From Cirrosporium novae-zelandiae (taxonomy: Eukaryota), in the NCBI GenBank assembly GCA_026023565.1, contig JAPETS010000009.1, positions 124,001-188,000 of the forward strand: 64,000 nt of DNA, written 5' to 3'. Below, piece by piece: positions 1,909 through 63,916 of this stretch. Position numbers and translations under genes: made by a program. The stretch's first letter is position 1, and each line of letters begins with the position of its first letter. The notes under the pieces are model-generated. The model made no database searches. It worked only from the letters and a program-made list of their open reading frames with translations, and had not been told where the DNA came from.

Positions 1909-2095
1909 GAGATTCTAAGATCTAGGAAGTATCCCTGTCTCGAAGCACACAACTCAATTGACGCTCTCCTCCCATCCCCACCTTTGTATCTCTTTCTTTA
2001 ATTCCCCAACCAACACGTCCATTCCTTCTCAAGTCCAACAAGCCCAACAAGCCCAACAAGCCCAACTCCAGCTCCAATTCCGACGAAAAACAGCC

Positions 2096-3202: not shown

Positions 3203-3269
3203 ATATGATATACTATATGGAAGAAAGAAAGAAAGAAGGAAAAATATTACGGTATATACCGTATATCCA

Positions 3270-43920: not shown

Positions 43921-45920
43921 ATGGCCCCCGAACCATTGACGAAACGGTCATCCAGTAGAGCTTGGGAAGCTCTGACCCCACCACTATCAGAATGGATTCT
44001 TGATGCGACAGCCAGTATGGGCTTCGGTCGCATGACACCAGTACAGGCTTCCACAATCCCTCTATTCATGACGCACAAAGACGTGGTAGTTGAAGTAAGC
44101 ATATTATTCTTGGTGAACCAATCACGCAATCGGCGGCTAACAGCTCGTTCTTCAAGGCTGTTACTGGTAGCGGAAAGACCCTCGCTTTCCTGATACCTGT
44201 GGTGGAAAAGCTATTAAGGATTGAGGAACCGATCAAGAGGCATCATGTTGGCGCAATTATTGTTTCTCCCACGAGGGAATTGGCCACTCAGATATACAAT
44301 GTTCTTGTCTCATTACTTAAATTCCATGGTCCTTCTACGGCAGTTCTAAAACCTCCAGATGATGAAAGCCATGAGGGGCAGATGGACATTGATGGTGGCG
44401 CAAAGGAGGAGGAAACGCCCATATACCCCGCTTCTACTCTCAAGATTCTTCCCCAGCTTCTAGTTGGAGGCAAGACAGCAACCGTCTCTCAAGACCTGCA
44501 GCACTTTATGAAACATTCTCCAAACATCCTCATCGCAACGCCAGGACGACTTGTCGAGCTTCTCTCCTCTCCTCGCGTCCATACTCCACAATCCTCGTTC
44601 GAAATGCTCATTCTTGACGAGGCCGACCGACTGCTCTCTCTCGGGTTCCAACCCACTCTTCAAAAGATACTTTCTCTCCTCCCCAAACAACGACGAACTG
44701 GTCTCTTCAGCGCCAGTGTGTCCGAGGCCGTATCAAAACTCATCCTTGTCGGCCTTCGCAATCCCGTCAAAGTCTCTGTCAAAGTAAAATCCCAAGTCAC
44801 CGACCAAGACCTCCGGGTTCCAACTAGCCTCGAATTGACATATATGCTCACGCCTCCACGGCACAAACTGCCTGCCCTCAACCACATTCTCAACAATCTG
44901 TCTCCAACTCCACAAAAATCAATCATCTATGTCTCCACCTGTGCGACGGTCGACTACCTCTCAACCATACTCCCGATCCTGATTCCCAAATCCTTCACCC
45001 TCATTCCACTCCATGGAAAGCAACCACCACAAGTTCGCACTCGGCTCTTCAACCAATTTCTCGGAACCACCACGCCTTGTCTCCTCCTAACAACCGACCT
45101 CGCTGCCCGGGGCCTCGACATTCCCTCGGTGGATCTAACAATCCAACTTTCCCCCCCAAGCACCCCGTCGACCTATCTCCACCGCTCTGGCCGCGCGGGC
45201 CGTGCAGGGCGACCTGGTCTCTCCGTCCTCTTCCTAACCCCCGGTCGTGAAGAAGGCTACATTCCCTTCCTCGCCGTGCGCCACACACCCATCCATCCGC
45301 TCTCGCTTCCCAACCTTCCCGAATTCAACCCCACCCCTACCCAGATAACCACAACCGAAACCACAATCCGCACCCACCTCCTCACCGACCGAACCCTCCA
45401 CGACAAATCCCAACGCTCCTTTGTCTCCTACGCCCGCTTCTACAGCTCCCACGAAGCAAAATCCATCTTCCGAATCACCGACCTCAACTTCGAGGACCTA
45501 GGTCACGCGTGGGGTCTCCTTAAGCTTCCCAAAATGCCCGAACTCAAAGCCCATCCAGAAATAGATAAAACCCTAGGCCAAAAAGAGATCGACTGGAAAA
45601 ACTACACATACAAAGACAAGCAGCGCGAGAAACGACGACTAGAAAAACAAGAAGATGAATCCAACAAGCACGATGATGATGACACAACAGCGCCCCGAAA
45701 CGCAAACGCGGCCTGGAGCGCCCAGCACGCAGCGCACGCGAAGAGAAACAAGAGGAGGGAGCAGAGACATGTGCGGAGAGAGAAAGAGAGGAAAGCGAAA
45801 ATGACCGAGGAGGAGAGGGCGAGGGATGATGAGCTGGAGGATATGATTGAGGTTGTGAGGAAGGGGGTTAGGAGGCGCGAGGAGATGGAAGAGGAGGAGT
45901 GGGGGGGTTGTGAGGATTGA
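43921..45920 (+). CDS. SPB4: ATP-dependent rRNA DEAD-box helicase Spb4 (DDX55 orthologue); intron 44095-44156
   Basis: Q motif [16 protein letters not shown], then [14 protein letters not shown] across the intron, [47 protein letters not shown], and the Spb4-type C-terminal SFVSY...IFR...[12 protein letters not shown]. Confidence 0.95.
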
Positions 45921-49117: not shown

Positions 49118-51801
49118 TCAGGCAGCTTGCTGAATGCGTCCATTCTCCTTATAGAAACGAACATCATTGGCGAAATCATCGTCAGCAGCTTGTATTTGTT
49201 CTGGAGTGCGTTGATTGAATAGGGTCTGCGCATTCTCCAGCTCCTCTTGCGTGAATCTTCCTCCTTGTGACTTGAGAACAGTAGTTGGCCACTCTATTAA
49301 AGTAGGAGAAGTGTCCTCATTAGAAGCAAGGGAATCTTCAACTTCTGGCTCGACCTGTTGTGCCTTTGGTTGAGTCTCAGTTAGAACCTTTGGTTGAGTC
49401 TCAGTTAGGACATTTGGTTGAATCTCAGGTAGAGCTTTTGGTTGAGTCTCAGCTAGCGCCTTTTTCCAGGTATCAACTCCTCCTTTGACAGGGCTGACAG
49501 GCCGTGTAAAGTGGCGATTATGAACAGGAGTATTCTCGGTGGAACCACCTTCAACCACTGGACTAAGGGTAGTCTGATATTGACTGAGAGCACTTGGTCT
49601 GCGGGACCTGTGTTTCATAATCTCGGCTCGTTTCTTGGCTAGTGCATCATTCTCTGGAGTAACTGCAGGATTGGCGCTAGGAAGAGTAGCATGAGCAGGA
49701 GTTGGGCGGGGTGGAGGCGGCTGAGTCCACTTGCTTGGTTCCTCAGTAGACAAATTGTTCGACTCCTTGGTGGAAGATGTGCTTGGCTCTGCAGTGATAG
49801 GATTGCTTGGTTCCTCGATAGGAGGTTGGCTGGCTGTCGACGATGAACCACGCTCCGGCGAGAGTTCCTCATCATCAGAGTCGTCGCTATATGTCAATTC
49901 GAAGGTACCACTCTTGTTAGGGATCACAGGTGGAGGTACATAGTCAGGTGGGTTCTGGCCTTCTCGAACTTGCTGTCCCTGGACCTGTTGCCCCGTCTGG
50001 TTGACAGTAGCAGCCTGATCAAATAGGTTCTTCCCATTGTCACGCTTTAAGCTTCGGTTACTTGGATCAGCGAACATTGTACCGGTGTACGGCGCGGCGC
50101 GTTTTGGATCACCAATACGATTTCGAGGACTAGTTTCATTCTCATCGACACAGTCTTCGACACGAGCCTTCTTGGATGGACGAATACTTTCCGGGTCATC
50201 ATTCTTCCTCGCAGACTTGGGAGTACCAACAGCGGAGGCATGGTTGGTAGGAACTGTGTCGTTGCCATTTGCTTTGGAAGGCGTCTCTCCGTCGTCACTC
50301 GACTCATCGAAATAATCCTCCCACATCCCGTACGAGCAGCCTGGAGGGTTTGGTATTACTTCTGGACTCGTAATCCGCTTTCTCTTGCTGCCTGTCTTTT
50401 GAATTTCCTCGGCTTTAGCAAGTTCCTCTCGTTCAATTGCTCTCCTCGCTTGCTCTTTCTTGGTGAATTCAATCTGAGACTCGATGAAATCTCTCTCAAT
50501 TCGCTTATTTTCCTCCTTGATCATCTCTTCTTTGGACCTGAATGCCTTCTGTGGTTTCTTGGCTTGACGGCTACCTGCGGTTGGTATAGGACCGGCGCTG
50601 GCTGGAGCATTGTTTGCTGAAAAGATGACGCGACCACTGGGTTCTGTTTGAGGCATGGCACCGAAATCCAATGAGACCTGTTGACCAACAGGAGTAGAAG
50701 GGACATTATTAGGATTCACTGCTAAATAAAATGTGAAGATTAGCGTTAGTTATGCGCTAGCGATAGATGTAGCTTACCTGCGCGTCTTTCACCACCAAAG
50801 AGCTTTTTAACCGAGCCAAGAATAGCACGTATTTTCGACTGACCATTTCGTGGTGCTGGCGTGGGGGTTGCTGGTGCTGCAAACACCTCAGATGTTGGAG
50901 GGGATGCGGAAGGTGTTTCAGCAACTGGAGCGACCTGAGTCGACTTTTGATCTTCTCCCATCTGTACATTGCCAGCATCGTTAGTGCCATCAGCCATACC
51001 CACATCGGTATTGTCATTGATGGACTCGCGCTGTCTGTAGCCGAGAACCTTGCGGGCACTAGCTGCGCTGCGAAGTGTCCGACGGCGCAGAATACTGGAT
51101 TCCCAGAGCAGGTTTCCATTTCTGTCTCTTTGTTTTGTCAATGCCGAGGTCGGTGGGAATCTAGTAGATGTGGAGGTATTCGGATCGTTGGTATTGTTGG
51201 GTGGGGAGGATTGAGAAGGGGGGGGTGTTTCGCGTAAGCGTTTCGAGGCTGGAACTTCAGACTGATTATTTTCTTCATCAGACTCTGGATATTCTCGTCT
51301 CCGCTTGAGGGTTTCGCGACGTCGCTCGATCACTGTTGGGATATCATCAAGTAAGTCTCTCATTCTGGACGTTGGGCTTGTATTAGGAGTATATCTGAGT
51401 AAAGCTGCGGCAAGAGAGGTGCCCGTTGTGCGTTTGGGAAGCGCTACATGAGGCACCTTATTGGGGTCCTCAAAAGACTTCTCAAAGGACGACGCAGGGC
51501 CCTTGTGATGGCAGGAGGGGCAGCAGAGGTATATCACTCTAGGAGTATTGGTCTGGATCTGTGTCTGGATCTCTGGGGTCTCTGGCTGGGTCTCTGTCTG
51601 GGTCTCACAGTTGCTTGCTGTTTCCTCCACGATGGGCTCAACGGGTTCACTTGGTTCGCCGACCGGGTTCTCGAACGAGGGTTCAGCCGATGATGCGGAA
51701 GACGGGCCAGTTGGCGTATCTTTCTTCTTTCGCCCGCGTCTTTTCGGAGTCGGAAGCTTTTGCAGCGGCGAAGCGGCTGCCTGAGATCTTGTACGAGCCA
51801 T
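49118..51801 (-). CDS. Hypothetical disordered S/P/T/E-rich protein, likely nuclear, ~875 aa; intron 50777-50722
   Basis: Two long ORFs joined by a GTAAGC...CTAAC...TAG intron in phase 1. Basic motifs MARTRS, KRRGRKKK and GSKRKR; short motifs LCCPSCHHKGP, SPEVIPNPPGCSYGM and WTQPPPPRPTPAHATLP; a 24-bp/8-aa repeat (LTETQPKV) x4 at ~49360-49460. Confidence 0.8.
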
Positions 51802-53184
51802 TGTGATTGCCTTTTCGATCTTTAGTCAGAAGGTGGTTCAGGAAGGAACGAGAAGGTTGAAAATGTACAAGAAAGAGTTGGAGATGGATGAGGTGTTTCT
51901 GAGAAAACTAAAGGCAGGTACGAGTTGCATCGAAAAGATGCGATGAATGACGGGGATTTCGCTTACCTTAAACGCGATCGCGTCTATTTTACGCGACAAG
52001 CGAACGTCTTTGGCGAGGAACTTTATCTTGATATCACTTCGACTTTGGTACAGACAACTGCTTTGATTTTTGGTTGTTGATGTTTGAAATGGTTGAAGTT
52101 AACTTGTTGATATTCTTGTTAAGCTGACGTGAACACTTTGGGGTTGAGTTGCACTCTGGAGTGCTAAGCTAAGCTGTTCTTGTGCTTGAGACAAGTTTTC
52201 TTGAGATACTCAAGGTTGTTCAGATCGTCAACCTGGTCAAGAAGTGATTGTCTCTAAGAGAGCTAAGCTTGTTAAAAGGCTCAAGGTATGAGAAGTGTTC
52301 AGAGTCAGAGGTTAAGAAGTCAACGGGGTTGTGGTACATGAAATGTTGTAAAGGTTGAGAGTTGTAAAGGAAGAAGAGTTGAGAAGGAAGAGTTGTGGGA
52401 AATTTATAGTGGATATTTTGTTGTTGTTGCTATTGTTGTTGTTATTGTTGCTGTTATTGTTGTTGTTTTTATTGGTGCTGCCTAGATGTGGTGGTGCGAG
52501 GCAAAAAAAAAAGCGTCTCTAGTAGAGCTATGAACGGATATTGCCTTTTGAAAACAGTGGAGGACTATCCCATCACTCTCTGACTACTATGTTTTACCGC
52601 AAGAGACAACTAGCTTGGATATCTCCTCAAAGAGTGCGTTCGTCTTACTCACCCACGAGCCCTAGTTTGCGAGGAGATTTCTAACAGCTTATATACTAAG
52701 ATCAATTTCAGATCCTATTCTCCTTAAAGGTATCCCGGATACAGAATGGTTCGGTATATAATACGGCATAAACAGACTGGATATACTAGTAAAGGGAGCT
52801 GAAATATGTCAAGAGAGTAGATATTTATCCATTAGAAAAGTACCTAGGTATTTCATCATCTCACACGGTCCTACAACAGTACTAGAATTTAAAGTCACAG
52901 TATTCCTTAATTCACATAGAGGATAACCCAAGTGAAACTAGAAATTACCATACCAGTTTGAGAGATAAAAGCCAATAGCCTAGGATTGTAATACAGAAAG
53001 CCTAAGAACTAGAAATGATACATTCTTCAAGCCGTCAATAGCATCTAAGGGAAACATAGGTGTCAAATTTCAATCGGCCCGTAATAATTAAATAATATAG
53101 TTAAACACCAGTATCTACCAACAGCGAATCCGTAACTCTACAGAGATATCTACTTAGGCTTGACACAACTATCCATAAGTACAC

Positions 53185-55554
53185 TCAATATGCCTTCACA
53201 CCTTCCACTACACTCTTGGCCTCTGTGTCTTTTTCAACATCTCTATCCTTTTCGACGCCTTCGACGGTCTCCACTATCGTCCCGGCTCTGAGTTCTTCGC
53301 CCTTCTGTCCAGTGACAAATTTCATGAATGACAACAAGCTATCTTTACCTTGCCACAATGGCATGATCAAGATTGTCAAGCTAGCGACCCAGGCAAATAT
53401 GAATGTGAAAGCCACCCAGGCACGGAAGAAGGGCTTGCTGAATACATAAGATGATCCATACATGGGCATAGGGAATAGGATGACAAAGATAAGACAGAGG
53501 GCACTAACAGGTATGATTAGCTCTATAGGTTCCACGAAATTATCACAGACTCAAAACTCACATGGCTAGTGCAATTCCCCAATTTCTTGCTTTGTGCAAC
53601 GATCTCTCTTCTTCTGGACTCAAACTTTCCTTCTTCATTTGCTCGGCTAGCTGTTCCTGCGTTAATCCAGCAACATCGCTATCATCTATGACTTTGATCT
53701 CTGTCTGAAATCTCGACCAGTTGAAGTCATCGGGTCCAAATATGAAGGTGAGGAGTATAGAGTACACGGCACCAGAGACAAGAGATGTAGCATTGCCTAC
53801 AACGAGAGGAAGTGCGGTTGAGGTTGTAGCGATAGTCACAGAGCCTTCAAAGGCATACGCTGAGCCAAGCCAGGAGGATATTGCAGTAATGCTACCAAGG
53901 ACAGGGGCAATGCATATGGCCGCCTTGTTTTGACGTTTCCAAAGGATGGTACTATACATCGGCCAAACCATACTAGAAGTGAATATACTAAAATGACGCG
54001 TTAGAAATAGAACACCGCGATTTCGTCAGGGAACAAATCTTACCCCATACATGTCACAAGGTAGTTCACACCGATAGCATACTGCAGACCGGAAGCTATT
54101 CCTGCCATGAGAAGACTCCATATGATTACTGCCCAATGCGACATTTTCACTAGTCGACTGCCAGTAGCAGTAGGATTTATATATGTCCCATATATGTCGT
54201 AAGCGAAAACTGAAGCCACAGCTACCAGATCTGCAGAGAACCCAGATGTGCAGGCCATGAAAACCATCAACAAGATGAAGACAGCTCCACCATTACCCAT
54301 AAGAGCAGCCGCAACATAGGGAAGGGGGAGGCCTTGGTTAACCTCATCCGAAGTCATAAGTCGAGGCCACGTTGGGAATGCAGGGTTACTCTCCAGAGCT
54401 CGCGCCGCCAGGCCAAAGGTTGTTGCTAGGCAAAATGGGATGCTAAAAGTTGGATTAATTTCTATTCTTCCTGAAAAAACGGAGCGAGGGACTCAACGTG
54501 AACCATGCAAGACCTCCTATCATGTATCCCGGCAACGTACTAGATGGATTCGCAGCGATTGCCTGAAATTATTTCTAAGTATTGGCTTTTGAGAAAGAGT
54601 ATGAGCAACAGACCTTTTGATACAGCTGGAAATCGACCGTGGTACCGAATACTGCACACCAAAATATCACACCGAACAGGACAGCGTCAAGACTTCTCAT
54701 GGTAAGATATTCGCCACCCGCATTCCCAGAGACTGGAGCAGTCTGCGCGGCTTGTTTCAAAAGCTCCCACATAGCATCAGGAGAGCCAATCAGCGATGAA
54801 TGGGTATAGACAATGAAGAGCCCTGTAAGAACGAGCGCATAGACAATGACCGTGTGAACATAATCAGTTAAGAAGGTGGCCTTGATGCCACCAAATAAAG
54901 TATAAATTACCACACCAACAGGAAGAAGGAAACTTCCAAATCGTTAGCAAGTTTCTAGTCGCAAGGCCTCAAAGCTCACCATCCTGCAACTGGATGCATT
55001 CCCGTCAGAGCAGAGAATACTGCAGAACCCCCAACCAAGATGTTTACGCAATTGATAATCTGGTACATTGTGGAATAGATCATCTGAATCCAATGCCCAG
55101 TCTTTCCATATCGTATCTTTGATACTTCAAGGAAAGTATGAGCCCCTGGTGCCTTGCGTTTGAGCTCGATTGCGCTAACAGCAAAGACATATATCTGCAC
55201 AGATGCGCCTGCGCCGTAGAAATAAGCTCCAGAAATACCATATGAGTAAGTCCATGAAGTAGAAGTAAGCAAAGTCGCAGCAATTGTCCAGCCCGATACC
55301 ACAGCCGAAGCAACAAGTCCACTTTTGATAGAGTGTTTTGCTGTTGAAAACATCTCAGAGGTCTGAACCTCTTTATTGAACTTTCCAAGGACATATGATG
55401 CCCACCACATTCCGATTGCGAAAATTGCTCCAACTCCAATGAGAATTCCATAACCGACACCTAGAATATATCAGAATAAAGCTCAGATGTAATTCTGGGA
55501 GACGAGATCCTTGCCTTGGCCTAGCGGCGGTGCTACACTGGAGGTTGAAGACAT
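53185..55554 (-). CDS. Dur3/UreA-like sodium:solute symporter family transporter, a divergent paralogue; 6 introns, the first GC-AG (55514-55461)
   Basis: Spliced N-terminus MSSTSSVAPPLGQGVGYGILIGVG. Motifs: SEMFSTAKHSIKSGLVASAVVSGWT, IELKRKAPGAHTFLE, YTLFGGIKATFLTDYVHT, GNAGGEYLTMRS, KAIAANP..GYMIGGLAWF, YDIYGTYINPTATG, LFPMPMYGSSYVFSKPFFRAWV. Confidence 0.93.
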
Positions 55555-56594
55555 TGTACAAAAGACAAGAAAACAAATCTCCTATAGGGAACAGATAGAT
55601 GATAGTGCCGACAGACCCAGAAGAAGCGAGGTAGTGTACGGGAAGTGCAAATGGAATTAACGATAGGAAATATAGGAATAAAGGAATAGCAAGAGAACTG
55701 ATAAGACTTACCTTGCACCTATCAATTATGTGTAGGTGCCTCTTGCAGAGGCCATCTCCAAAGTATATTCCATCCTTATCAATATGAATATCGGCTATGC
55801 TGCATGATATCAACATTAGCTCACAAAGGACCCCTGACGATGAGCTTCTACTGCTTGAGACTTTCGTGTAATACAGTGGCTTGTTTCTCTCCTTACGGAT
55901 AACAGTATTTGGACTGTATACCTAAATAGGAAGAATCACGCCAGATGTGAGATGACATCAGTTAGATAGAAACACGCGAAGAACAGGTGTTTGAAAACAG
56001 CTCTAAAGAAAAGATAGCGATTGAATTTGGACATTTTGAATAATAATTATGGCTTGATACTGATTCCAACAAGGAAGCTGGTCTCGAAGAGACGCTTTCG
56101 GAGTTCTAGGTAAGAAGGTAAGATAATAATGTTGATCGGTCGGGGTTGACAGGTGGAAACCTAGATATCATCATACTAGAACATCATTGGAGATAATTTG
56201 ATATCAATACTGCTGCGATAACGGCTGATGGACTTGAAACATATAACCGCAGTCAGTTCACAATGGAAGTAAGGTTATCCTGGCTTGGCCCCACGAGCCA
56301 GCTTGAGTATATTGTGGTGAGTCGTGGTTGACCGATAACATCCAAATTAGGAAGCTGGCTTTATCTCCGACGAATTTAGGTGGGTTTAAATATTACGGAA
56401 TATGTCAACTAACAGCCATGTTCCACATGTTATCCATTTACCCCAGGGTTCCCACCTACATGCTTCCATATGAATTTAGGTTGTATTTAATACCTGCCGC
56501 AAATAGACGGCGCTTTCACTAAGGAAACTACTCATTCTTTAAATGACAAGGTAACAAGAGGTTTAATTGGAAGGTTAAACAATCTCCACAGAAT

Positions 56595-57621
56595 TTAAGC
56601 AAAGTACTTGGCGTTGAAAGCATCTACGACTTCTCTAGTAGCTTTGACAATATCCAAGCAGCCCGGAGAATCCGAATGACAGCAAATCGTCGTGGGATAA
56701 TCCTTCACCGGCAGTTGAACAATTTGTCCATCCACCGAAGTTACAGATTGAGTTTCAATCTGTTGTGAGACATGCTTCTTCACATCCTCGAGCACCCAAG
56801 GTTTCTTTTTCCGATCAATAATCAGCGTACCTTCATTTGTATATTTGACATCGCCGTAGAACTCTAAGCATTGACTGTCAGTAGTCAAAAGAAGTGAGAA
56901 TTCATATATACTTGCCTGCAAAGAACTTGATTCCAAGATTGTTGGCTGCTGTTTCCATGTTTGTTCCGGCAAGACCAAAAACAGGTACCCCCTTGGGAAT
57001 GCCACGCATAACAGCTTCTGCAACCTCATAGTCTCTGCACATCATTCCGTATAATATCCCTACAGTTGATTTAGCCACCCCTTCTGCCATTTGTAATATT
57101 TGCTTTAGCTACCATGAGGCTTGACATGATGCAATGGCATCCCTTCTTGATCGAGAAATCCTTTCAGAGCTCCAACTTGATAGATAGTGAGGGCCGTGAG
57201 TTCTTCCGGAGAGAGTTTCATCTCTTCTTGTTCATTAGGCAATTAGATATTAATAATGAAGAACTGACTTGCCTCTTCGTCCAAATCCATTCAAATCTGG
57301 TAAACCCGGATGGGCACCAACTTTGATATTGTGTTTTTTGCAATTGCGGACAGTTTCCATCATTATAAGGGGATCCCTGGTCATCGATGAGCCATTGCTC
57401 TAGACAATTAGCTAAGGGTAGAGCAAATCTCACGATGCATGAAAACCACAAGCGATATTTGCATAATCGATTAGAGGAATGAGCTCAAGATCAGGGCCAC
57501 AGACCCAGTTTCCATACTAGGAGGGAAATCGTCAGTTTCGGATCATTCATACAGGATTGAGTGCTCGTACCCCTTCTCCAAGGTCAACATTAATTAATGC
57601 CTTGTGTTGTATTGGACTCAT
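56595..57621 (-). CDS. lamB: LamB/YcsF family protein (5-oxoprolinase PxpA-like); 5 introns, two of them GC-AG
   Basis: Hand-spliced sequence: [120 protein letters not shown]...[11 protein letters not shown]...[10 protein letters not shown]. All LamB/YcsF signature blocks are present. The ORF track shows it only as fragments. Confidence 0.95.
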
Positions 57622-58132
57622 GATTCAGGTAATATGAGAAAGTTGTTGAAAATTCTTATGTCCAATTAGCAGCAGTGCTGTGACGAACATCTTCATATTG
57701 TTATTGTAGATCAATTGTTCGTATCACCCCTCCGGATCGTCTCCCGATTGCTTACTGGTGTAAAGTGGGCGATGGGCTAAAGTGTTGAAGCTTGAAATGC
57801 TCGGCACACCCATATACCCTATGTGGCAATTCGACTCGACCTCCACTATCAGTAAAGAAACCTTATGGGTACAACAACGTACATCCTGGAACTTCACCCC
57901 TCTTATCTACAATGTTATCGGATTTATCGTTCTATGACCTAGCTCGGCAAAGGACTTGCCCCTCAGATAGTAGCCGCCAAGGTTAACCTGTCCGAGATTG
58001 TACTACATAGCTCATATCACGGCATTCGATGATGGTCAAGATGGGTTTCAAACTTTGGCCGGCAGCTGCTGGCGATTCATATTTAAGGCTGCTTTCGGTA
58101 TTTATGGTATTATCTGGGTTGGGATTCTCAAT
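57622..58132. promoter_or_regulatory. Shared 511-bp divergent promoter with a CCAAT box and a GATA cluster
   Basis: CCAAT at 57662-57666. Three same-orientation TTATC cores at 57903, 57915 and 57924, with more GATA cores near 57845, 57965 and 58110. Confidence 0.65.
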
Positions 58133-61100
58133 ATGGAAGCCATAAGAACTTTGTTGGTAGCAAATCGGGGAGAAATAGCTGTGAGAATTATTAAAACAGC
58201 CAAGTATGTTACTATTCTATAATACTGACGCATAGATCGCTTATTTCTTGCAATATAGGGCTCTAGGAATTCGAACAATTGCGATATATACAGAGGCAGA
58301 TGCAGCATCAACCCACGTTGCCTTGGCTGACGAAGCGGTTCTTTTGGCTGGCGAAAATGGGTCAGGATATATTGACGGGTTAGAGTCTTCAATTTCGTTG
58401 ATTATTATGTTATAATTTAGCCCCTAACAATTCATGTCCTCATTAGAGACCACATTGTCCAAATTGCGAAAAAATACGATGCCAATGCTGTGATCCCTGG
58501 CTATGGGTTTCTCTCAGAACATGCAGAATTCTCACAGGCTGTTCATGCTGCTGGTATGGTTTTTGTAGGGCCATCGGCAGAGAGCATTGAAGCCTTTGGA
58601 ATTAAACATACCGCAAGGGGACTGGCAGAGAAGGCCGGAGTGCCTGTTGTACCTGGCTCTGGACTCGTAAAAGACCAAGAAGAAGCGTTACGAATCTCAA
58701 ATGAACTTGGATTTCCGGTACAGCACTCTCTCATGATTTGGACTATAGGATACCCCTAGTTTAGTAACTAATGCATTTTGACTAGATCATCCTCAAAGCG
58801 ACCGCGGGGGGAGGTGGCATGGGTCTTATGCAGTGCTCTAATGAAGAGGAGGTCAAGAAGTCATTCGATATGGTCCAATCGCGAGGTACTACACTCTTCA
58901 AGAATGCTGGAGTATTCATTGAAAGGTTCTACCCTTCGAGCCATCATATTGAAGTTCAAGTATTCGGTAACGGACTCGGCAAAGCTATAAGCTTTGGAGA
59001 GAGAGAATGTTCCATACAAAGAAGGCATCAAAAAGTCATTGAAGAGTGTCCCAGCCCCTTTGTCACGAAACACCCAGGTAGGTATATTCAATTCAAGGCT
59101 TTGAACGTGTACTGATATTTTGGAAGAGCTTCGAGATAAATTGTGCTCCGCTGCAATCAAACTTGCCGAGTCTATCAAATATGGCTCAGCCGGAACCGTT
59201 GAATACCTTGTAGATGACGAATCAGGAGATTTTTTCTTTCTAGAGATGAATACGAGACTCCAGGTTGAACATGGCATCACCGAGCTCTGCTACAATGTTG
59301 ATATGGTAGAGCTCATGTTAAAGCAAGCTGATGCCCAGCTGCTTGGGAGGGGAGGCCTAGATTCAGCAAATCTAGAGGCCCTCATAACAACCAAACCTAA
59401 TGGCTTCGCTATAGAGGCCAGGCTATACGCTGAAAACCCTGCCAAGAACTATGCACCATCTCCAGGAACCTTAGCGCTAGTCAAGTGGCAGGAAACAGAT
59501 GGTTCAAGGATTGATACGTGGGTGCATACAGGCTCACAAATCACATCATATTATGATCCTCTATTGGCTAAAGTCATGTTCCACTCAAAGACCTCCCGCC
59601 AAGATGCGATATGTGGAATGCTTGAGGTGCTCAAAGGATCTGAAGTGTGTGGGCCACCTACTAATCTTGATTTCCTAGCTTCAATCCTCCAAACCCCCGA
59701 ATTCATGTCTGGGAAAACGCTTACAAAGTTCCTTTCATCTTTCAAATATTCACCATCAGCTATTGATGTCCTCGCTGGGGGAGCATTGACACAAATCCAA
59801 GACTGGCCAGGGAGGCCGACGTTAGGGAAAGGATTTCCTCACTCTGGCCCCATGGACCCCCTCGCTTTTCGCATTGCTAATTTGCTCGTTGGAAACCCAA
59901 TGGGTATGGAGGCATTGGAAATAACACTAAATGGTCCCGACTTGGTTTTCTTGGGTCCCGCTATCATATCTTTATGTGGCGCACCTATGGAAGCCGAATT
60001 AGATGCAAACCCCTTTAAAATGTGGACTAGAACTAAGGTTGAAGCTGGGCAGAGGCTGAAGATTGGGAAAACCATAGGAGGGGGATGCCGAGCTTATTTG
60101 GCGATATATGGCGGGTTTCCTGGCATAGCGAGTTGGTTTGGCTCCAAGTCGACAAGCACAATGGTAGGCGTAGGAGGCCTCCAAGGTCGAGCTCTTGCAA
60201 CAGGTGACCTTCTAACCATAACTCAAGATCTTCCCAAAGATGTTGGAGATGCCAGCCTTCCCGAGAATCTTATACCAGAATATCCAAATCATTGGGAAAT
60301 TCTAGCAATGTCTGGACCTTACGATGATGACTTCTTAACGACTGAAGATGTCCAGGCTATTTTCAACAACACTTGGACAATTAGTCATAATGCTGCTCGC
60401 GGTGGAATTCGACTCCTAGGTGACATCAAACCAAAGTGGGCTCGTTCAGACGGGGGTGAGGGTGGAGCACATCCCAGTAATGTACCAGAGTATGGCTATT
60501 CAATTGGAGCTCTCAACTGGACCGGAGATGACCCCGTTATCTTTCCCGTCGACTGTCCTGATTTTGGAGGGTTTGTCTCTTGCCCTACTATAGTTAAGGG
60601 TGAATTTTGGAGACTTGGGCAGGTAAAGGCCGGGGACACGCTCAAATATAGAGAAGTTTCTTTAGCCGATGCCCTAGTAGTAAGAGCCACTGTGGAAAAG
60701 TATATTGATGGAGTCGCCAAATGTTGCTTGCGAAATACCGGCTGGAATGAGGTCTTAAGACTCGATTATAACGAATTGATATCTTCGACTTCTTCAAAAG
60801 GTGCTAAGAAAGGAGTTATCCGGAAGCTTGAAGCTACAGAGGCTAGGCCTGTAGTGTCATATCGGCAGGTCAGTAGTTCCCCGTTCTCAAACTTTTACCA
60901 ACCAGAGTGCTGACATCTAGTTAAGGGCGGGGATGACTTTCTCCAGGTGGAGTACGGTGTGGGAATGTTCGACCTAAATCATACATGCAGAGCCACAGCA
61001 CTCAACAAAACGCTCAAAGAATCAAAAGGCCCTATATCATTCTCTACCGGGATTACTAACACCGTTGTTTGTGGCAATTCCATAACGTTCCACTATGATG

Positions 61101-62203
61101 GCACCAAGATCCCCCAAGCAACACTTTTAGAGGAACTATGTAAGTTGGAGGATGTACTCGGTGATCTTCATAGTATAAAATTCCCAAGCCGTCTTTTCCG
61201 TCTCCCTTTGACTCTTGAAAGCTGGCGCCAGACGGCTGCAATCCAAAGATATATGGAGACTCAGAGACCTTATGCAAGTTATTTACCAGATAACATGGAC
61301 TTTGTTGCCAAGAATAACGGATTTACCCGCCAAGATCTGGAGAAGATATATTTCGAGCAGCGATTCATTACTATAGCCGTAGGTTTCTTTTGTGCGCTCC
61401 CGCTCTGTCTATCAGTGGATCCAAGATTCCGGTTGAACTGTCCGAAGATGAACCCCTCAAGAGTATGGACTCCTAGTGGCCAGTGGAGCTGGGGTGGATC
61501 ATGCGGTGCTCTGTACAATGTCGAGTCTCCCGGGGGCTATCAACTTACCGGACTTACAATTCCAAGTGTTGACATTCTAGGCTATAAAAAGGGTTACTCA
61601 CCTGATCGCCCTTGGTTATTTGAGGACTTTGACCAGTTGTCCTTCTACCCTGTTAGTGAAGAGGAATATGAAAGACAGCGCGCCCTATTCTATAGCGGAC
61701 GCTATGAATATGACTGGAAGCCTGTCATGTTTGACATGAAAGAGCATAACAAACTCCTGAAGGAGACCCGGGCCGAGGTGGAAGAGACCCGGAAACGCCA
61801 AAGGCTCGCACAAGAAGAAATGGACAAACTAGAAAAGGAGATGCTTGAGAAATGGAATCAAGAAAAAGCCAAAGATGAAATACCTATGGATGAAGTCGAA
61901 GCGCTGTTGAACGGTAAATGCGTCCTCATAATCGCAATGCTTCATCCTACTAACTCTTGCACAGATCCCGCCATCGCCAAAATCGAAAGCCCCCTAAACG
62001 CGAACGTATGGAAAGTCATGGTTGAAGAAGGCCATACTCTTGAAGCCGATGAAACAGTGGTGATCCTAGAAGCTATGAAATTAGAGATTTCCGTTCGCGC
62101 GGATGCGGGCCTCGCAGGTGCCAAGGTGGAGAAGCTCTTGGTCAGACCTAATGATGTAGTGAAGGGAGGAGGCTCGTTGTTACTTGTAAGGAAAAAAGGG
62201 TAG
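58133..62203 (+). CDS. lamA: Biotin-dependent urea-carboxylase-like protein (LamA-like): biotin carboxylase, AHS2/PxpC-like, AHS1/PxpB-like and biotinyl domains; no amidase domain; 6 introns
   Basis: BC domain: LLVANRGEIAVR, PGYGFLSE, GGGGMG, ERECSIQRRHQKVIEE, FLEMNTRLQVEHG, EARLYAE, YYDPLLAK. CT domain: TQIQDWPGR...GPMD, LEITLNGP, GSKST, PKMNPSR, SPGGYQ. Biotin site: EAMKLE. The last intron, 61914-61964, is in frame. The symbol is inferred from the head-to-head layout with lamB. Confidence 0.92.
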
Positions 62204-62632
62204 ACTTTAGACGATGACGGTCTATTTTCTCTGTTGATGACCAAATCCTCTAGTTTCTAATATCCATCTCCGTTATGTAGCATCCCTTCTCATCCTCAGT
62301 CCGTACTTGTGAACGTATACCAATGTTATAATTACTTCCTCATTAATATATTTTCAAACCCATTCCTAGTATAATAGGGAAATGATTCTCATTTTCTTTT
62401 GGTTGAGACTGGAGAGCTGTCAATGTCTACATTTTGCTCTGGTGGTTGGCGTGTTCGGCGCTTGGCTCATTTCGGTCCGACGACCTCTGATATCCCGATT
62501 GAAGCTTCTTAGCACATACAAGATACAAGCCCACAACATCTATGGGGCCTTCTGATATTTTGCTACTATAAATATTTATTCAAAGCTATCAGAATCAGAG
62601 TGTGTTCTCGCTTTATCGCTACTGGTTCTAGG

Positions 62633-63916
62633 CTAATCCTCATCCCTTTCGACCTTTGCTGGAATGGGTTTATTTGCCAAAGGAGTCAAGCGGAAACCAT
62701 GTCTCCTATCGCCAACAGGATAATCAAGTGTTTGTGAATGGTGCACAATTCTTTGATCCCAGACTAGGACAGTACCAGCCTCGTACCTGACTCGACAAGA
62801 GAAGTCCTGGCCTCGCGCAATATGATCAAACAGGAATTTCAGAAGATAGTCTGACTCCTCTTGGTCGAAGCCGACTATCCTTTTGGTGTATACCGGATTG
62901 ACATCTATATTTTAATGAGCAATATTGACAAGATATTGAACAAAGAGACTTACAAAGTGCCTTTTCGCGAGTGACTGGATGGACAATCACGACAGGATGT
63001 TCTGCTTTACAAATTCCACGTCGCATAACAGCCTTCTCGCCATGTTTCAACTCCGTGCGCACGCCATCATCGTTATTGTGAATAGCAGTTAAACCCTCCA
63101 GCCGCTTCCGAAACCTAGGTGAGAGACGACTGAATGCTCGGACGCTTGAACTGACCAGAGTATCCCCACCAGCAGATGAAGGTGACTCGAGCATGCAGAT
63201 GAATGTTGTCCCTGGAGGCTGCTGCTCGGCGCTTTGATCAGAATGCCATTGAACGGGGCTTCTGCCCGCCCATTGCTTACGTACACGGAGATCACTAGCG
63301 ATGAACATTTAGCAAAGCGGACAATCCGTATTATCGAGGGACTCATACTCCTTGTGGTCATATATAATCATGTGTTCCTCTGATCCAGCCACTGGGTGAG
63401 GAGCCCAGCTTCATGTTGTCAGCTTGAGTCTTCTAACACTCTAAAGATTCTACCCACCCATGTATGTGCAATGGACCGAAATGTCTGACAATGTTTTTCT
63501 GCGCTTCCATTCCAATGTTTGCGAAATCTTGATCACGGAAAACTAGCGCTCCCCGTTTAGCAGTTAGCAAAGCGAGCTCGTCCAATCCAGCACTGTCAAG
63601 CTGGGATAGTTGTACACCATGGATCTCTGTCCCAACATGGGGCGATAGATCCCACATCTTGGTCATGGTCTTTAACAAGGTCGGCAGTTTTGGATCAGCT
63701 CGATGTCCTGGATCATGGTGCTCAAAGGGGCCGATATCCTCTACTTTCTCAAGAGGGTCGTAAAACGCTATCCAGGAGCTTAGCAAACTTGTTCCGAATC
63801 ATGGAATCACACCTACGCATGTAGTCTGGGTATAGAGGAGACCCATCGTCATTTTTTGGGCGGACAACTTTTACGTGCTGAGGCACATTGGCCGTGGTAG
63901 TCGTAGCGATCGGCAT
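62633..63916 (-). CDS. TauD/TfdA-family Fe(II)/2-oxoglutarate dioxygenase (Jlp1-like); 3 introns
   Basis: Motifs: DPGHRADP, LSPHVGTEIHGVQLSQL, LVFRDQD, WHSDQS (HxD), GGDTL, HPVVIVHPVTREKAL|YVNP, ES..LLKFLFDHI, VWDQRIVHH (distal His), RRHGFR. ATG at 63916, TAG at 62635-62633. Confidence 0.93.

What the first reader, a model, noticed from the sequence alone, without database searches (positions are those of the whole stretch)
53185..63916. Compact transporter + LamB/PxpA + biotin carboxylase-PxpC-PxpB fusion + TauD block: candidate nitrogen-scavenging pathway for a lactam or cyclic amide, not urea
Seen: four metabolic genes with short spacers. lamB and the carboxylase share a 511-bp divergent promoter, the transporter follows lamB, and TauD converges on the carboxylase. 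Known: bacterial PxpA (LamB/YcsF), PxpB and PxpC form an ATP-dependent 5-oxoprolinase; PxpB/PxpC are homologous to the carboxyltransferase domain of urea carboxylase; Aspergillus nidulans lamA/lamB are a divergent pair needed for 2-pyrrolidinone use. Inference: this is a eukaryotic two-subunit PxpABC-like lactam hydrolase with fused biotin carboxylase and biotin carrier, possibly opening the ring by carboxylation-assisted chemistry, and supplied by a dedicated importer. There is no amidase/allophanate hydrolase domain in the gene or the window, so an automated 'urea amidolyase + urea transporter' label would probably be wrong. The lamA/lamB pair itself has precedent; the substrate and the added transporter and dioxygenase are the open questions.
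Basis: partly seen in the sequence, partly recalled or inferred. Interest (0 to 1): 0.85.

Follow-up and report, generated by a model that had tools for sequence, protein, structure and literature searches.

The report
Fungal lamA-lamB lactam gene pair
This stretch of a fungal genome carries the already known lamA/lamB gene pair for feeding on ring-shaped amides, which databases mislabel as a urea enzyme, beside a transporter gene and an oxygenase gene that are not its regular neighbours in other fungi.

Summary
Four intron-bearing genes lie at 53185-63916: a DUR3-like SSS transporter, LamB/PxpA, a 1240-aa biotin carboxylase-CT-BCCP protein, and a TauD-family dioxygenase. The spacers are 1040, 511 and 429 bp, and the window holds no amidase. 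The carboxylase is the orthologue of Aspergillus nidulans LamA (65% identity over its full length), so the lamA/lamB core is a new member of a known kind.

The 'not urea' reading is supported. LamA and the other fungal stand-alone 'urea carboxylases' I sampled lack a one-residue Asp insertion (GLGD) that is present in yeast urea amidolyase and bacterial urea carboxylases. In prokaryotic loci, CT genes without that Asp have a LamB gene nearby in 17 of 22 cases, and CT genes with it in 0 of 9.

The four-gene pathway reading is not supported. TauD orthologues lie on contigs other than lamA in 4 of 4 Aspergilli. DUR3-like relatives do so in 9 of 9 species. One Sordariomycete (Neoarthrinium) does have a DUR3-like gene beside a LamA-like gene.

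GATA motifs are enriched in the lamA/lamB promoter and in the transporter promoter. Carboxylation-assisted ring opening remains an inference.

The parts
53185..55554 (-). DUR3-like SSS-family transporter gene, 682 aa. Exons: 55554-55515, 55460-54980, 54932-54614, 54562-54498, 54442-54044, 53987-53562, 53503-53185. The first intron is GC-AG.
   Evidence: Model. Pfam SSF and NCBIfam sss hits on the exons. The database model P0121 is the same gene but lacks the 65-nt exon 54562-54498 and uses a distant first exon. Full-length identity is 70% to a Fomitopsis protein, 66% to Pyrenula, and 47-51% to Aspergillus, Capronia and Exophiala homologues.
55555..56594 (.). Spacer between the lamB stop and the transporter ATG. 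It is the presumed transporter promoter and is rich in HGATAR motifs.
   Evidence: 13 HGATAR sites in 1040 bp. Dinucleotide shuffles gave a mean of 4.8, and 2 of 1000 shuffles reached 13.
56595..57621 (-). lamB (LamB/YcsF = PxpA family) gene, 253 aa. Exons: 57621-57571, 57516-57434, 57376-57273, 57223-57113, 57059-56916, 56863-56595. Introns 3 and 5 are GC-AG.
   Evidence: Model. Pfam LamB_YcsF on four exons and NCBIfam PxpA models. The model is 46% identical to two bacterial LamB proteins over 239 residues; the only gaps (5 in each alignment) lie away from the splice junctions.
57622..58132 (.). 511-bp divergent lamB/lamA promoter region.
   Evidence: Coordinates. It holds 6 HGATAR sites; 14 of 1000 shuffles reached 6, and 0.5% of 547 GC-matched 511-bp windows reached 6. 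It also holds one CCAAT and one CGG-N8-CCG.
58133..62203 (+). lamA-like gene, 1240 aa: biotin carboxylase, CT_A_B (PxpC-like), CT_C_D (PxpB-like), BCCP. Exons: 58133-58203, 58259-58378, 58447-58717, 58786-59077, 59127-60868, 60926-61913, 61965-62203.
   Evidence: Model and Pfam. The database model P0001 differs only by keeping the last 51-nt intron as 17 extra residues. Identity to A. nidulans LamA is 65%. The biotin-attachment motif AMK is at residue 1198. The residue aligned with the catalytic Lys1605 of K. lactis urea amidolyase is kept, and its Asp1584 aligns to a gap.
62633..63916 (-). TauD/TfdA-family 2-oxoglutarate dioxygenase gene, 360 aa, convergent with lamA. Exons: 63916-63817, 63767-63458, 63408-63349, 63294-62954, 62904-62633. 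It is probably a bystander.
   Evidence: Model, identical to P0241. Pfam TauD on three exons. Nearest solved structures are the taurine/alkylsulfate dioxygenases TauD and AtsK. Relatives are 74-86% identical in exon 4, are spread over Ascomycota and Basidiomycota, and are named 'sulfonate dioxygenase' by one source.

Best explanation
The core is the fungal lactam-utilisation locus: lamA and lamB, divergently transcribed from a 511-bp promoter that is probably under nitrogen (GATA-factor) control.

LamA is a complete biotin enzyme. Its biotin carboxylase domain uses ATP and bicarbonate to carboxylate the biotin on its own BCCP domain. Its carboxyltransferase domain has the PxpC/PxpB-type pocket, not the urea-carboxylase-type pocket.

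Inferred mechanism: LamA transfers the carboxyl group onto the ring nitrogen of a small lactam such as 2-pyrrolidinone. LamB, the PxpA-type hydrolase, then opens the activated ring. The resulting carbamate loses CO2 and gives the omega-amino acid (GABA).

The DUR3-like gene downstream of lamB may import the substrate in this species. The TauD gene is most likely an unrelated neighbour.

Shown here: gene structure, domain content, orthology to A. nidulans LamA, the difference in the active site, and the coupling of that site type with LamB in prokaryotes.

Inferred: the substrate, N-carboxylation, the order of steps, and the transporter's role.

My odds: lamA/lamB orthologue pair 0.95; not a urea-degrading enzyme 0.8; carboxylation-assisted ring opening 0.45; transporter functionally tied to the pair 0.3; TauD tied to the pair 0.07. 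The single confidence figure below is for the statement as a whole, mechanism included.
For: Orthology:
- The 120 best of 5029 hits are 1,000-1,270-aa proteins of Eurotiomycetes, Lecanoromycetes and relatives, 60-67% identical.
- The 90% cluster of hit P0115 holds A. nidulans AN0887 = P38095.
- My model is 65% identical to it over 1243 columns, against 38% to the carboxylase part of Vanderwaltozyma urea amidolyase.
- Strope et al. 2011 (PMC3073912; abstract and passages read) used P38095 as 'the fungal urea carboxylase'. Their Table 2 shows Aspergilli with this gene and urease but no amidase.
- lamA and lamB are named as the AmdR-controlled lactam catabolism genes in PMC8016842 (passage read).

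Active site:
- Asp1584 of K. lactis urea amidolyase (motif GLGD) aligns to a gap in LamA, and Lys1605 is kept. Lys1605 is described as the likely general base in PMC5770610 (passage read).
- Three metagenomic fused urea-carboxylase-like genes all have GLGD. Two of them are followed by an allophanate-hydrolase-like gene.
- Of 107 aligned CT_C_D rows, 60 have the Asp, 44 have the gap (the window and 8 LamA-family rows that I added are among these), 1 has Gly, and 2 lack coverage.
- A quick ML tree of 96 rows puts 41 gap rows on one side of a branch with SH-aLRT 98, and 54 Asp rows plus one long-branch gap row on the other.
- 10 of the 15 gap-class representatives I looked up carry names, and all 10 are fungal.

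Coupling with LamB:
- In 31 prokaryotic or metagenomic loci, a LamB gene lies within the locus in 17 of 22 gap-class cases and in 0 of 9 Asp-class cases (Fisher p = 1e-4). Among loci of at least 10 kb the counts are 16 of 18 and 0 of 5 (p = 6e-4).
- 13 of the 22 gap-class loci also have a biotin carboxylase gene.

Intact biotin chemistry: all BC and BCCP Pfam domains are present and the AMK motif is present.

Regulation: HGATAR motifs are enriched in both promoters.

Transporter:
- In Neoarthrinium moseri, three assemblies merge a DUR3-like gene (50% identical to mine) and a LamA-like gene (55%) into one gene model, so the two are adjacent and co-oriented there.
- UreA paralogues of unknown specificity exist in Aspergilli, and UreA binds acetamide (PMC4077062, passages read).
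Against: - No enzymology exists for LamA or LamB in anything I could read. N-carboxylation of a lactam is inference only.
- The role of Asp1584 as a urea ligand is recalled from Fan et al. 2012, which is not held. What I tested is only that the indel splits the family and tracks the gene neighbours.
- The tree is the quick one; the careful search did not finish.
- The prokaryotic loci include close relatives (six Lachnospiraceae-type, four Pseudonocardia-type, three archaeal), so the Fisher p overstates independence. The search patterns also came from gap-class sequences.
- 9 of the 22 gap-class loci show no biotin carboxylase gene in the DNA held. Of these, L096 and L099 have long flanks and look like plain PxpABC, so the gap state is a PxpB-like state in general and is not specific to biotin enzymes.
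- Conservation of the lamA-lamB adjacency in other fungi was not tested here, because I had no stored LamB protein and no searches left.
- The transporter family is the urea permease family, which also fits a urea-like substrate.
- Transporter and lamA lie on different contigs in 9 of 9 species with single-contig records (eight Aspergilli and Pyrenula) and in Heliocybe. In A. multicolor both lie on a contig of the same length (2,425,875 bp), distance unknown.
- I dropped the multi-contig clusters (Paecilomyces, Elasticomyces, Exophiala xenobiotica) as ambiguous.
- Only the best 120 of 1258 transporter hits were visible, so a more distant paralogue beside lamA could have been missed.
Confidence: 0.55

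Rival explanations
1. It is what the databases say: a urea (or guanidine or other small acyclic amide) carboxylase served by a urea-type permease. LamB replaces the missing allophanate hydrolase by hydrolysing the N-carboxylated product.
For: The best solved match is K. lactis urea carboxylase (E 2e-121), and the best NCBIfam model is TIGR02712 urea carboxylase. The adjacent transporter belongs to the DUR3/UreA urea permease family. A second DUR3-like/LamA-like adjacency occurs in Neoarthrinium. The catalytic Lys is kept. An allantoicase gene, whose enzyme releases urea, lies in the same window at 1919-3202.
Against: The GLGD Asp insertion found in all 60 Asp-class rows, yeast urea amidolyase included, is absent. 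The window has no amidase, and Aspergilli with this gene have none (Table 2 of PMC3073912). The two large exons score 571 + 223 bits against a TIGR02712 cut-off of 1304; the remaining third of the protein was not scored. A. nidulans genetics ties the pair to lactams. In prokaryotes, LamB goes with gap-class CT genes in 17 of 22 loci and with Asp-class CT genes in 0 of 9. The DUR3 family also carries other substrates; a search listing abstract says DUR31 homologues are thiamin transporters (PMC5997356).
Confidence: 0.12
2. It is a fused, biotin-bearing version of the PxpABC 5-oxoprolinase. Its physiological substrate is 5-oxoproline (pyroglutamate), giving glutamate, and not an exogenous lactam.
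For: LamB matches the NCBIfam PxpA models, and the CT halves match the PxpC and PxpB models. The CT site has the PxpB-like gap state. Some prokaryotic gap-class loci sit beside glutamate dehydrogenase and amino-acid permeases (L096; L085, L086 and L089 have APC permeases).
Against: The scores are far below the equivalog cut-offs: PxpC 127 against 500 and PxpB 33 against 146. PxpABC needs no biotin domains, whereas LamA keeps a complete BC and BCCP. The A. nidulans phenotype is for 2-pyrrolidinone under omega-amino-acid (AmdR) control (the older papers are recalled, not held). A DUR3-type carrier is an odd choice for an anionic amino-acid derivative.
Confidence: 0.15
3. All four genes form one co-regulated pathway. 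The TauD enzyme prepares or finishes the substrate, for example by oxidative N-dealkylation or hydroxylation of a substituted lactam. This would resemble the dioxygenase found in some guanidine carboxylase operons.
For: The genes are tightly spaced (429 bp between the stop codons). There is a precedent for a 2-OG dioxygenase feeding a carboxylase pathway in bacteria (PMC12508155, abstract in the search listing only).
Against: TauD orthologues (74-86% identical in exon 4) have a taxon spread unlike that of LamA. They lie on contigs other than lamA in 4 of 4 Aspergilli: A. oleicola, A. stella-maris, A. venezuelensis and A. filifer. The same holds for a 66%-identical relative in A. cavernicola. 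The gene is convergent with lamA, so it shares no promoter. Its own upstream region is cut off by the window end, with only 84 bp seen.
Confidence: 0.07

Closest known systems
Aspergillus nidulans lamA (AN0887, UniProt P38095) / lamB lactam-utilisation locus, AmdR regulon
   Same: Same 1240-aa architecture and 65% identity over the full length. A LamB/YcsF gene is paired with it, here divergently over 511 bp. Both are named as lactam catabolism genes (PMC8016842).
   Different: This is a different species, a Cirrosporium MAG by the database's name for the window's own proteins. A DUR3-like gene follows lamB and a TauD gene follows lamA here. In A. nidulans the gene numbered next to lamA, AN0888, is a JmjC protein (PMC4949671). 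AmdR control was not tested here.
Bacterial PxpABC 5-oxoprolinase (PxpA = LamB/YcsF; PxpB/PxpC = KipI/KipA)
   Same: The hydrolase family is the same, and the CT site of LamA has the PxpB-type state with no Asp insertion. LamB is 46% identical to prokaryotic LamB/PxpA-family proteins.
   Different: The PxpB- and PxpC-like parts are fused in the reverse order, C then B, and are flanked by BC and BCCP. The scores are far below the Pxp equivalog cut-offs.
Urea carboxylase / urea amidolyase (K. lactis 3VA7 and 5I8I; yeast DUR1,2)
   Same: Same BC-CT-BCCP layout and the best structural template. The catalytic Lys is kept.
   Different: Only 38% identity. The Asp of GLGD is missing. There is no allophanate hydrolase domain or gene nearby. 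LamA lies on the other side of a 98%-supported split in the CT tree.
Prokaryotic split cassettes: BC + BCCP + CT_C_D + CT_A_B + LamB
   Same: Same set of domains and the same gap-class CT site. LamB is adjacent (17 of 22 loci) and BC is nearby (13 of 22).
   Different: The parts are separate polypeptides in the order C_D then A_B. The neighbours are APC permeases, PucR regulators and a Cys/Met PLP enzyme, not a DUR3-type carrier.
DUR3/UreA urea-proton symporters of fungi and plants
   Same: SSS-family fold and length. Sources name the relatives 'urea active transporter'.
   Different: Identity to Aspergillus, Capronia and Exophiala homologues is only 47-51%, against 64-70% to a patchy set (Polyporales, Pyrenula, Friedmanniomyces). 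Its specificity is unknown.

Membership tests
Fungal LamA (A. nidulans P38095 clade, the 'fungal urea carboxylase' of Strope et al. 2011) | Single polypeptide BC - CT_A_B - CT_C_D - BCCP of about 1240 aa without an amidase domain | tested here: met
   Pfam domains in that order on the exons. The model is 1240 aa. There is no amidase similarity.
Fungal LamA (A. nidulans P38095 clade, the 'fungal urea carboxylase' of Strope et al. 2011) | Full-length orthologue-level identity to P38095, and placement inside its clade | tested here: met
   65% identity over 1243 columns. A 13-row clade with SH-aLRT 99 holds the window together with Aspergillus, Paracoccidioides, lichen-fungus and Neoarthrinium rows. 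The cluster of P0115 holds P38095.
Fungal LamA (A. nidulans P38095 clade, the 'fungal urea carboxylase' of Strope et al. 2011) | Paired with a lamB (LamB/YcsF) gene | tested here: met
   In this window the pair is divergent and 511 bp apart. Conservation in other fungi was not tested.
Fungal LamA (A. nidulans P38095 clade, the 'fungal urea carboxylase' of Strope et al. 2011) | Needed for growth on 2-pyrrolidinone; induced through AmdR | not testable with these tools
   This needs genetics. Only a passage naming lamA/lamB as AmdR-regulated lactam genes was read.
Urea carboxylase EC 6.3.4.6 (NCBIfam TIGR02712) | Score at or above the curated equivalog cut-off (1303.85 bits) | tested here: inconclusive
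   The two large exons score 570.8 and 222.9 bits. The N-terminal 330 aa and the BCCP lie on other exons and were not scored, so the total is unknown but unlikely to reach the cut-off.
Urea carboxylase EC 6.3.4.6 (NCBIfam TIGR02712) | CT active-site motif GLGD with the Asp equivalent to K. lactis Asp1584 (its role as a urea ligand is recalled, not read) | tested here: not met
   It aligns to a gap in LamA. The same holds in the 8 LamA-family rows that I added and in the consensus of 29 orthologues.
Urea carboxylase EC 6.3.4.6 (NCBIfam TIGR02712) | Works with an allophanate hydrolase (fused or adjacent amidase) | tested here: not met
   There is none in the 64-kb window. The rest of the genome is not held.
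Urea carboxylase EC 6.3.4.6 (NCBIfam TIGR02712) | Catalytic Lys (K. lactis Lys1605) | tested here: met
   It is aligned and conserved. Its role is described in PMC5770610.
PxpABC 5-oxoprolinase | PxpA subunit of the LamB/YcsF family | tested here: met
   Pfam PF03746 and NCBIfam PxpA models hit the lamB exons. Each exon scores below the whole-protein cut-offs, as expected for pieces.
PxpABC 5-oxoprolinase | Separate PxpB and PxpC subunits reaching the equivalog scores, with no biotin domains | tested here: not met
   The parts are fused with BC and BCCP. PxpC scores 126.9 against 500, and PxpB scores 32.6 against 145.55.
DUR3/UreA urea-proton symporter | SSS-family transporter of about 680 aa related to named DUR3/UreA proteins | tested here: met
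   Pfam SSF. 1258 relatives were found, many of them named 'urea active transporter'.
DUR3/UreA urea-proton symporter | Orthology to a characterised urea carrier, and the UreA residues W82, Y106, A110, T133, N275, D286, Y388, Y437, S446 | not tested
   No UreA sequence was at hand. The residues are listed in PMC4077062.
TauD/TfdA 2-oxoglutarate dioxygenases | TauD fold with the H-x-D ... H iron triad | tested here: met
   Pfam TauD covers profile positions 4-65, 96-198 and 197-267 on three exons. An H-S-D and a later His-His are visible in the translation. Which His binds iron was not modelled.

The most novel reading that the evidence does not exclude
The whole fungal family of stand-alone 'urea carboxylases' (LamA and its Asp-less paralogues in Ascomycota and Basidiomycota) is not a family of urea enzymes. 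It is the ATP- and biotin-driven half of a two-protein lactam-opening system that works with LamB: the ring nitrogen is N-carboxylated and the ring is then hydrolysed. That reaction type has no characterised example. In this fungus, and independently in Neoarthrinium, a DUR3-family permease has been recruited as its lactam importer.
Probability: 0.35. Interest if true: 0.7.

Novelty: new member of a known kind. Interest (0 to 1): 0.4.

Why it matters
The lamA/lamB pair has been known genetically for decades, but its chemistry has never been shown. Its carboxylase is still spread through databases as 'urea carboxylase' or even 'bifunctional urea carboxylase/allophanate hydrolase'.

The comparison made here gives a simple sequence marker, the presence or absence of one Asp before the catalytic Lys. 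This marker separates true urea carboxylases from LamA/PxpB-type enzymes, and in prokaryotes it tracks the partner gene (amidase or LamB).

The marker makes the open question testable with two purified proteins. It also warns against inferring urea use from this gene in fungal and lichen genomes.

For this window itself the result is mostly ordinary. The extra transporter and dioxygenase are not conserved partners.

Tried and rejected
1. Fungal synteny by DNA. The one metagenome scan with an alignment of 29 LamA orthologues drew its patterns from the biotin carboxylase domain. It returned 80 mostly bacterial BC genes. Only L050, L064 and L078 were full-length carboxylases, and none had LamB nearby. 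So fungal synteny could only be judged indirectly, from contig lengths and locus tags in the protein tables.

2. The window's own genome is not held. I therefore made no search for urease, DUR1,2, AmdR or other DUR3 paralogues in this fungus.

3. Earlier notes of this scan: no look-alike windows were found by place or by sequence, and there are no notes on this genome.

4. RNA evidence: no RNA holder is listed for the stretch.

5. An alignment of eight gap-class CT sequences had no stretch usable as a pattern. A four-row alignment worked.

6. Papers not held: Katz & Hynes 1989, Richardson et al. 1992, Niehaus et al. 2017 and Fan et al. 2012. What I say of them is recalled.

7. Searches for a published mechanism found none in the held library. 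Terms used included lamA/lamB/pyrrolidinone; urea carboxylase/lamA; 5-oxoprolinase/PxpA/lactam utilization; lactam permease/amdR; and 2-pyrrolidone/biotin-dependent/lactam/carboxylase/LamB.

8. A complex prediction of the LamA CT domain with LamB was not run. The spliced LamB exists under no stored protein id, and a bacterial stand-in seemed poor value.

9. An AmdR-site scan was not attempted, because I could not recall the site reliably. I noted only one CCAAT and one CGG-N8-CCG.

10. I considered mapping the UreA specificity residues onto the transporter and dropped it for lack of a UreA sequence.

Full report
**What is there.** The region holds four real, intron-bearing genes. I worked out the splice sites by eye from the sequence and checked each model by translation.
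- DUR3-like SSS transporter: - strand, 55554-53185, 7 exons, 682 aa.
- lamB: - strand, 57621-56595, 6 exons, 253 aa.
- lamA-like carboxylase: + strand, 58133-62203, 7 exons, 1240 aa.
- TauD-family dioxygenase: - strand, 63916-62633, 5 exons, 360 aa.

Pfam finds SSF on the transporter exons and LamB_YcsF on four lamB exons, whose profile ranges abut (39-73, 72-110, 110-160, 160-238). On lamA it finds Biotin_carb_N, CPSase_L_D2, Biotin_carb_C, CT_A_B, CT_C_D and Biotin_lipoyl in that order. It finds TauD on three exons. NCBIfam gives the matching names.

The protein database holds models of three of these genes with consecutive-looking locus tags on one contig of 843,830 bp, named as a MAG of Cirrosporium novae-zelandiae.
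- My TauD model is identical to the deposited one.
- My LamA model differs only by removing a 51-nt intron that the deposited model reads through.
- My transporter model restores a 65-nt exon and uses a nearby first exon.

Three of the 21 introns are GC-AG, two in lamB and one in the transporter. For lamB they are backed by alignments to two bacterial LamB proteins (46% identity over 239 residues) whose few gaps lie away from the splice junctions.

No amidase or allophanate hydrolase is present in the 64-kb window.

**What the carboxylase is.** A search with the largest exon returned 5029 hits with E <= 1e-20. The best 120 are proteins of about 1,000-1,270 aa from Eurotiomycetes, Lecanoromycetes and some other Pezizomycotina, 60-67% identical, mostly named 'urea carboxylase'.

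The 90% cluster of one of them holds A. nidulans AN0887 = UniProt P38095. My model is 65% identical to that protein over 1243 columns. It is 38% identical to the carboxylase part of a yeast urea amidolyase.

P38095 is the sequence that Strope et al. 2011 took as 'the fungal urea carboxylase'. Their table shows Aspergilli with this gene and urease but no amidase, and the words lactam and lamB do not occur in their text (PMC3073912; abstract and passages). P38095 is LamA (recalled). lamA and lamB are named as the AmdR-regulated lactam catabolism genes in PMC8016842 (passage). The original genetic papers are not held.

The core of the finding is therefore an orthologue of a known gene pair.

**Is it a urea enzyme?** The best solved relative is K. 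lactis urea carboxylase, but the carboxyltransferase site differs from it.
- In the alignment to K. lactis urea amidolyase, the Asp of its GLGD motif (Asp1584 by my count along the printed alignment) falls on a gap in LamA.
- Lys1605 is kept. PMC5770610 calls it the likely general base.
- That Asp1584 binds urea is my recollection of Fan et al. 2012, which I could not read.

Independently of that recollection, the indel divides the family.
- Of 107 aligned CT_C_D rows (the window, representatives from an exhaustive search, and 8 LamA-family rows that I added), 60 have the Asp, 44 have the gap, 1 has Gly and 2 lack coverage.
- A quick ML tree of the 96 longer rows puts 41 gap rows on one side of a branch with SH-aLRT 98. 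On the other side are 54 Asp rows plus one long-branch gap row. The careful search did not finish.
- Of the 15 gap-class representatives I looked up, 10 carry names and all 10 are fungal: a second Exophiala paralogue, Seiridium, Colletotrichum, Ustilago, Heliocybe, Microdochium, Daldinia, Naematelia, Mycena and Sporobolomyces.
- The Asp class includes a yeast DUR1,2 protein.

**Does the site type go with LamB?** I scanned prokaryotic genomes with patterns from gap-class CT sequences and obtained 28 loci. To these I added the three fused carboxylases from the metagenome scan.
- Twenty-two loci are gap class. Seventeen of them have a LamB gene in the DNA held, usually directly after CT_C_D and CT_A_B, and 13 have a biotin carboxylase gene.
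- Nine loci are Asp class (in one of them the contig end cuts off the Asp itself). None has LamB, and five have an amidase-like gene.
- Fisher p is 1e-4 for all loci. For loci of at least 10 kb (16 of 18 against 0 of 5) it is 6e-4.

Caveats apply. The loci include close relatives and the patterns were biased to the gap class. Nine gap-class loci show no biotin carboxylase in the DNA held, and of these L096 and L099 look like plain PxpABC. The gap is therefore the PxpB-like state in general.

This agrees with three earlier unchecked notes of this scan on bacterial split cassettes, which I have now partly re-tested.

They do not show what the chemistry is.

**The transporter.** Its closest full-length relatives are an odd set:

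| Relative | Identity |
|---|---|
| Polyporales (Fomitopsis) | 68-70% |
| Pyrenula | 66% |
| Friedmanniomyces | 64% |
| Heliocybe | 59% |
| Aspergillus, Capronia, Exophiala homologues | 47-51% |

I compared contig lengths of single-contig records between the LamA table and the transporter table. The two genes lie on different contigs in 9 of 9 species: A. californicus, A. heterothallicus, A. carlsbadensis, A. karnatakaensis, A. cavernicola, A. crustosus, A. nanangensis, A. heteromorphus and Pyrenula ochraceoflavens. For two of these the locus tags are also far apart. The same holds for Heliocybe.

Three multi-contig cases were set aside as ambiguous. In A. multicolor both genes sit on a contig of the same length, distance unknown. 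Only the best 120 of 1258 transporter hits were visible.

One positive case exists. In three Neoarthrinium moseri assemblies, a DUR3-like gene and a LamA-like gene (55% identical to the window's) are merged into one 1889-1940-aa model, so they are adjacent and co-oriented.

HGATAR motifs are enriched both in the lamA/lamB promoter (6 in 511 bp; 14 of 1000 shuffles reach this) and upstream of the transporter (13 in 1040 bp; 2 of 1000). This fits nitrogen control of both.

A. nidulans has three UreA paralogues of unknown specificity, and UreA binds acetamide (PMC4077062, passages).

I rate a functional tie at about 0.3.

**The dioxygenase.** Its relatives are 74-86% identical in exon 4 across Aspergillus, Penicillium, Leotiomycetes, Sordariomycetes, Dothideomycetes and Basidiomycota, and one source names them sulfonate dioxygenase. 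The nearest solved structures are TauD and AtsK.

In A. oleicola, A. stella-maris, A. venezuelensis and A. filifer the orthologue and lamA are on different contigs, 4 of 4. The gene converges on lamA and shares no promoter with it.

I treat it as a bystander, with odds of about 0.07 that it belongs to the pathway.

**Mechanism and verdict.** The most likely reading is the known lactam-utilisation pair. LamA loads CO2 on its biotin with ATP and passes it to the amide nitrogen of a small lactam in a PxpBC-type pocket. LamB then hydrolyses the activated ring, and the carbamate decarboxylates to the omega-amino acid.

The domains, the intact biotin motif, the orthology, the site difference and the LamB coupling are shown. 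The substrate, the N-carboxylation and the order of steps are inferred.

Five literature searches found no paper that shows the chemistry.

The finding is a new member of a known kind, with a sound warning about annotation. The proposed four-gene pathway is not supported.

Noticed in passing
window 57272-57224, 56915-56864 (lamB) and 55514-55461 (transporter): Three of the 21 introns in the four genes are GC-AG, with donors GCAAGT or GCAAGG. That is far more than the roughly 1% usual in fungi (recalled figure). The lamB ones are backed by alignments to bacterial LamB that have no gaps at the splice junctions.
   Followed up: partly
window 61914-61964; 54498-54562; 55996-56034: The deposited gene models differ from mine. 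LamA (P0001) reads through the last 51-nt intron, adding 17 residues. The transporter (P0121) skips a 65-nt exon that is conserved in relatives, and it starts in a distant exon with an intron of about 530 nt.
   Followed up: yes
window 53185-55554: The transporter's nearest relatives are Basidiomycota of the Polyporales (68-70% over the full length), ahead of any Eurotiomycete except Pyrenula (66%). This is a patchy distribution that could mean gene transfer or differential loss of a DUR3 paralogue.
   Followed up: partly
proteins P0163, P0559, P0560 (Neoarthrinium moseri): One gene model of 1889-1940 aa joins a DUR3-like transporter to a LamA-like carboxylase in three assemblies. It is probably two adjacent genes merged by the predictor, but a true fusion was not excluded.
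   Followed up: partly
window 1919-3202 (+): An allantoicase gene (Pfam E 4e-91), whose enzyme releases urea in purine breakdown, lies about 50 kb from the lam genes. No link was examined.
   Followed up: no
window 21175-24720 (-), 24973-28890 (-), 40230-41372 (-), 44094-45920 (+), 1-1220 (+): Other genes in the window: a hybrid histidine kinase with GAF and receiver domains; a kinase/AAA_16/NACHT-type protein; an arylsulfotransferase; an SPB4-like DEAD-box helicase; and a RabGAP-TBC protein. A long ORF pair at 49118-51825 (-) has no Pfam match.
   Followed up: no
loci L085, L086, L089 (Lachnospiraceae-type); L108 has the same LamB, BC and CT layout by tblastn only: In these cassettes the biotin carboxylase is fused to a cytidylate-kinase-like domain. 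The operon also holds a PucR regulator, a Cys/Met-metabolism PLP enzyme (in L085 and L089) and an APC permease directly after LamB; L085 and L089 also have a biotin ligase. This hints at an amino-acid-like ring substrate in those bacteria.
   Followed up: partly
locus L090 (Butyrivibrio MAG), 3034-3924: This gap-class cassette has BC, BCCP, CT_C_D and CT_A_B but no LamB. An FmdA/AmdA-family (acetamidase/formamidase) gene and a class-III aminotransferase sit in the same gene run. The FmdA/AmdA gene is possibly an alternative hydrolase partner.
   Followed up: no
protein P0546 (A. nidulans AN0887): RefSeq names LamA 'bifunctional urea carboxylase/allophanate hydrolase', although it has no amidase domain. 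The same name is spread over many Aspergillus orthologues.
   Followed up: yes
proteins P0369/P0511 versus P0029/P0034 (Exophiala dermatitidis): One species carries both a LamA orthologue (64% in exon 5) and a second Asp-less paralogue (48% over the full length). Fungi therefore have several subfamilies of these carboxylases, whose partners and substrates are unknown.
   Followed up: no
window 52312-52583: A low-complexity tract, which would read as an Asn-rich or Leu-rich run depending on the frame, lies in the AT-rich spacer (GC 0.39) just downstream of the transporter's 3' end.
   Followed up: no
A. nidulans AN0888 (literature): The gene numbered next to lamA in A. nidulans is a JmjC (KDM8-like) protein (PMC4949671), another 2-oxoglutarate oxygenase but of an unrelated family. 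I take this as coincidence.
   Followed up: no
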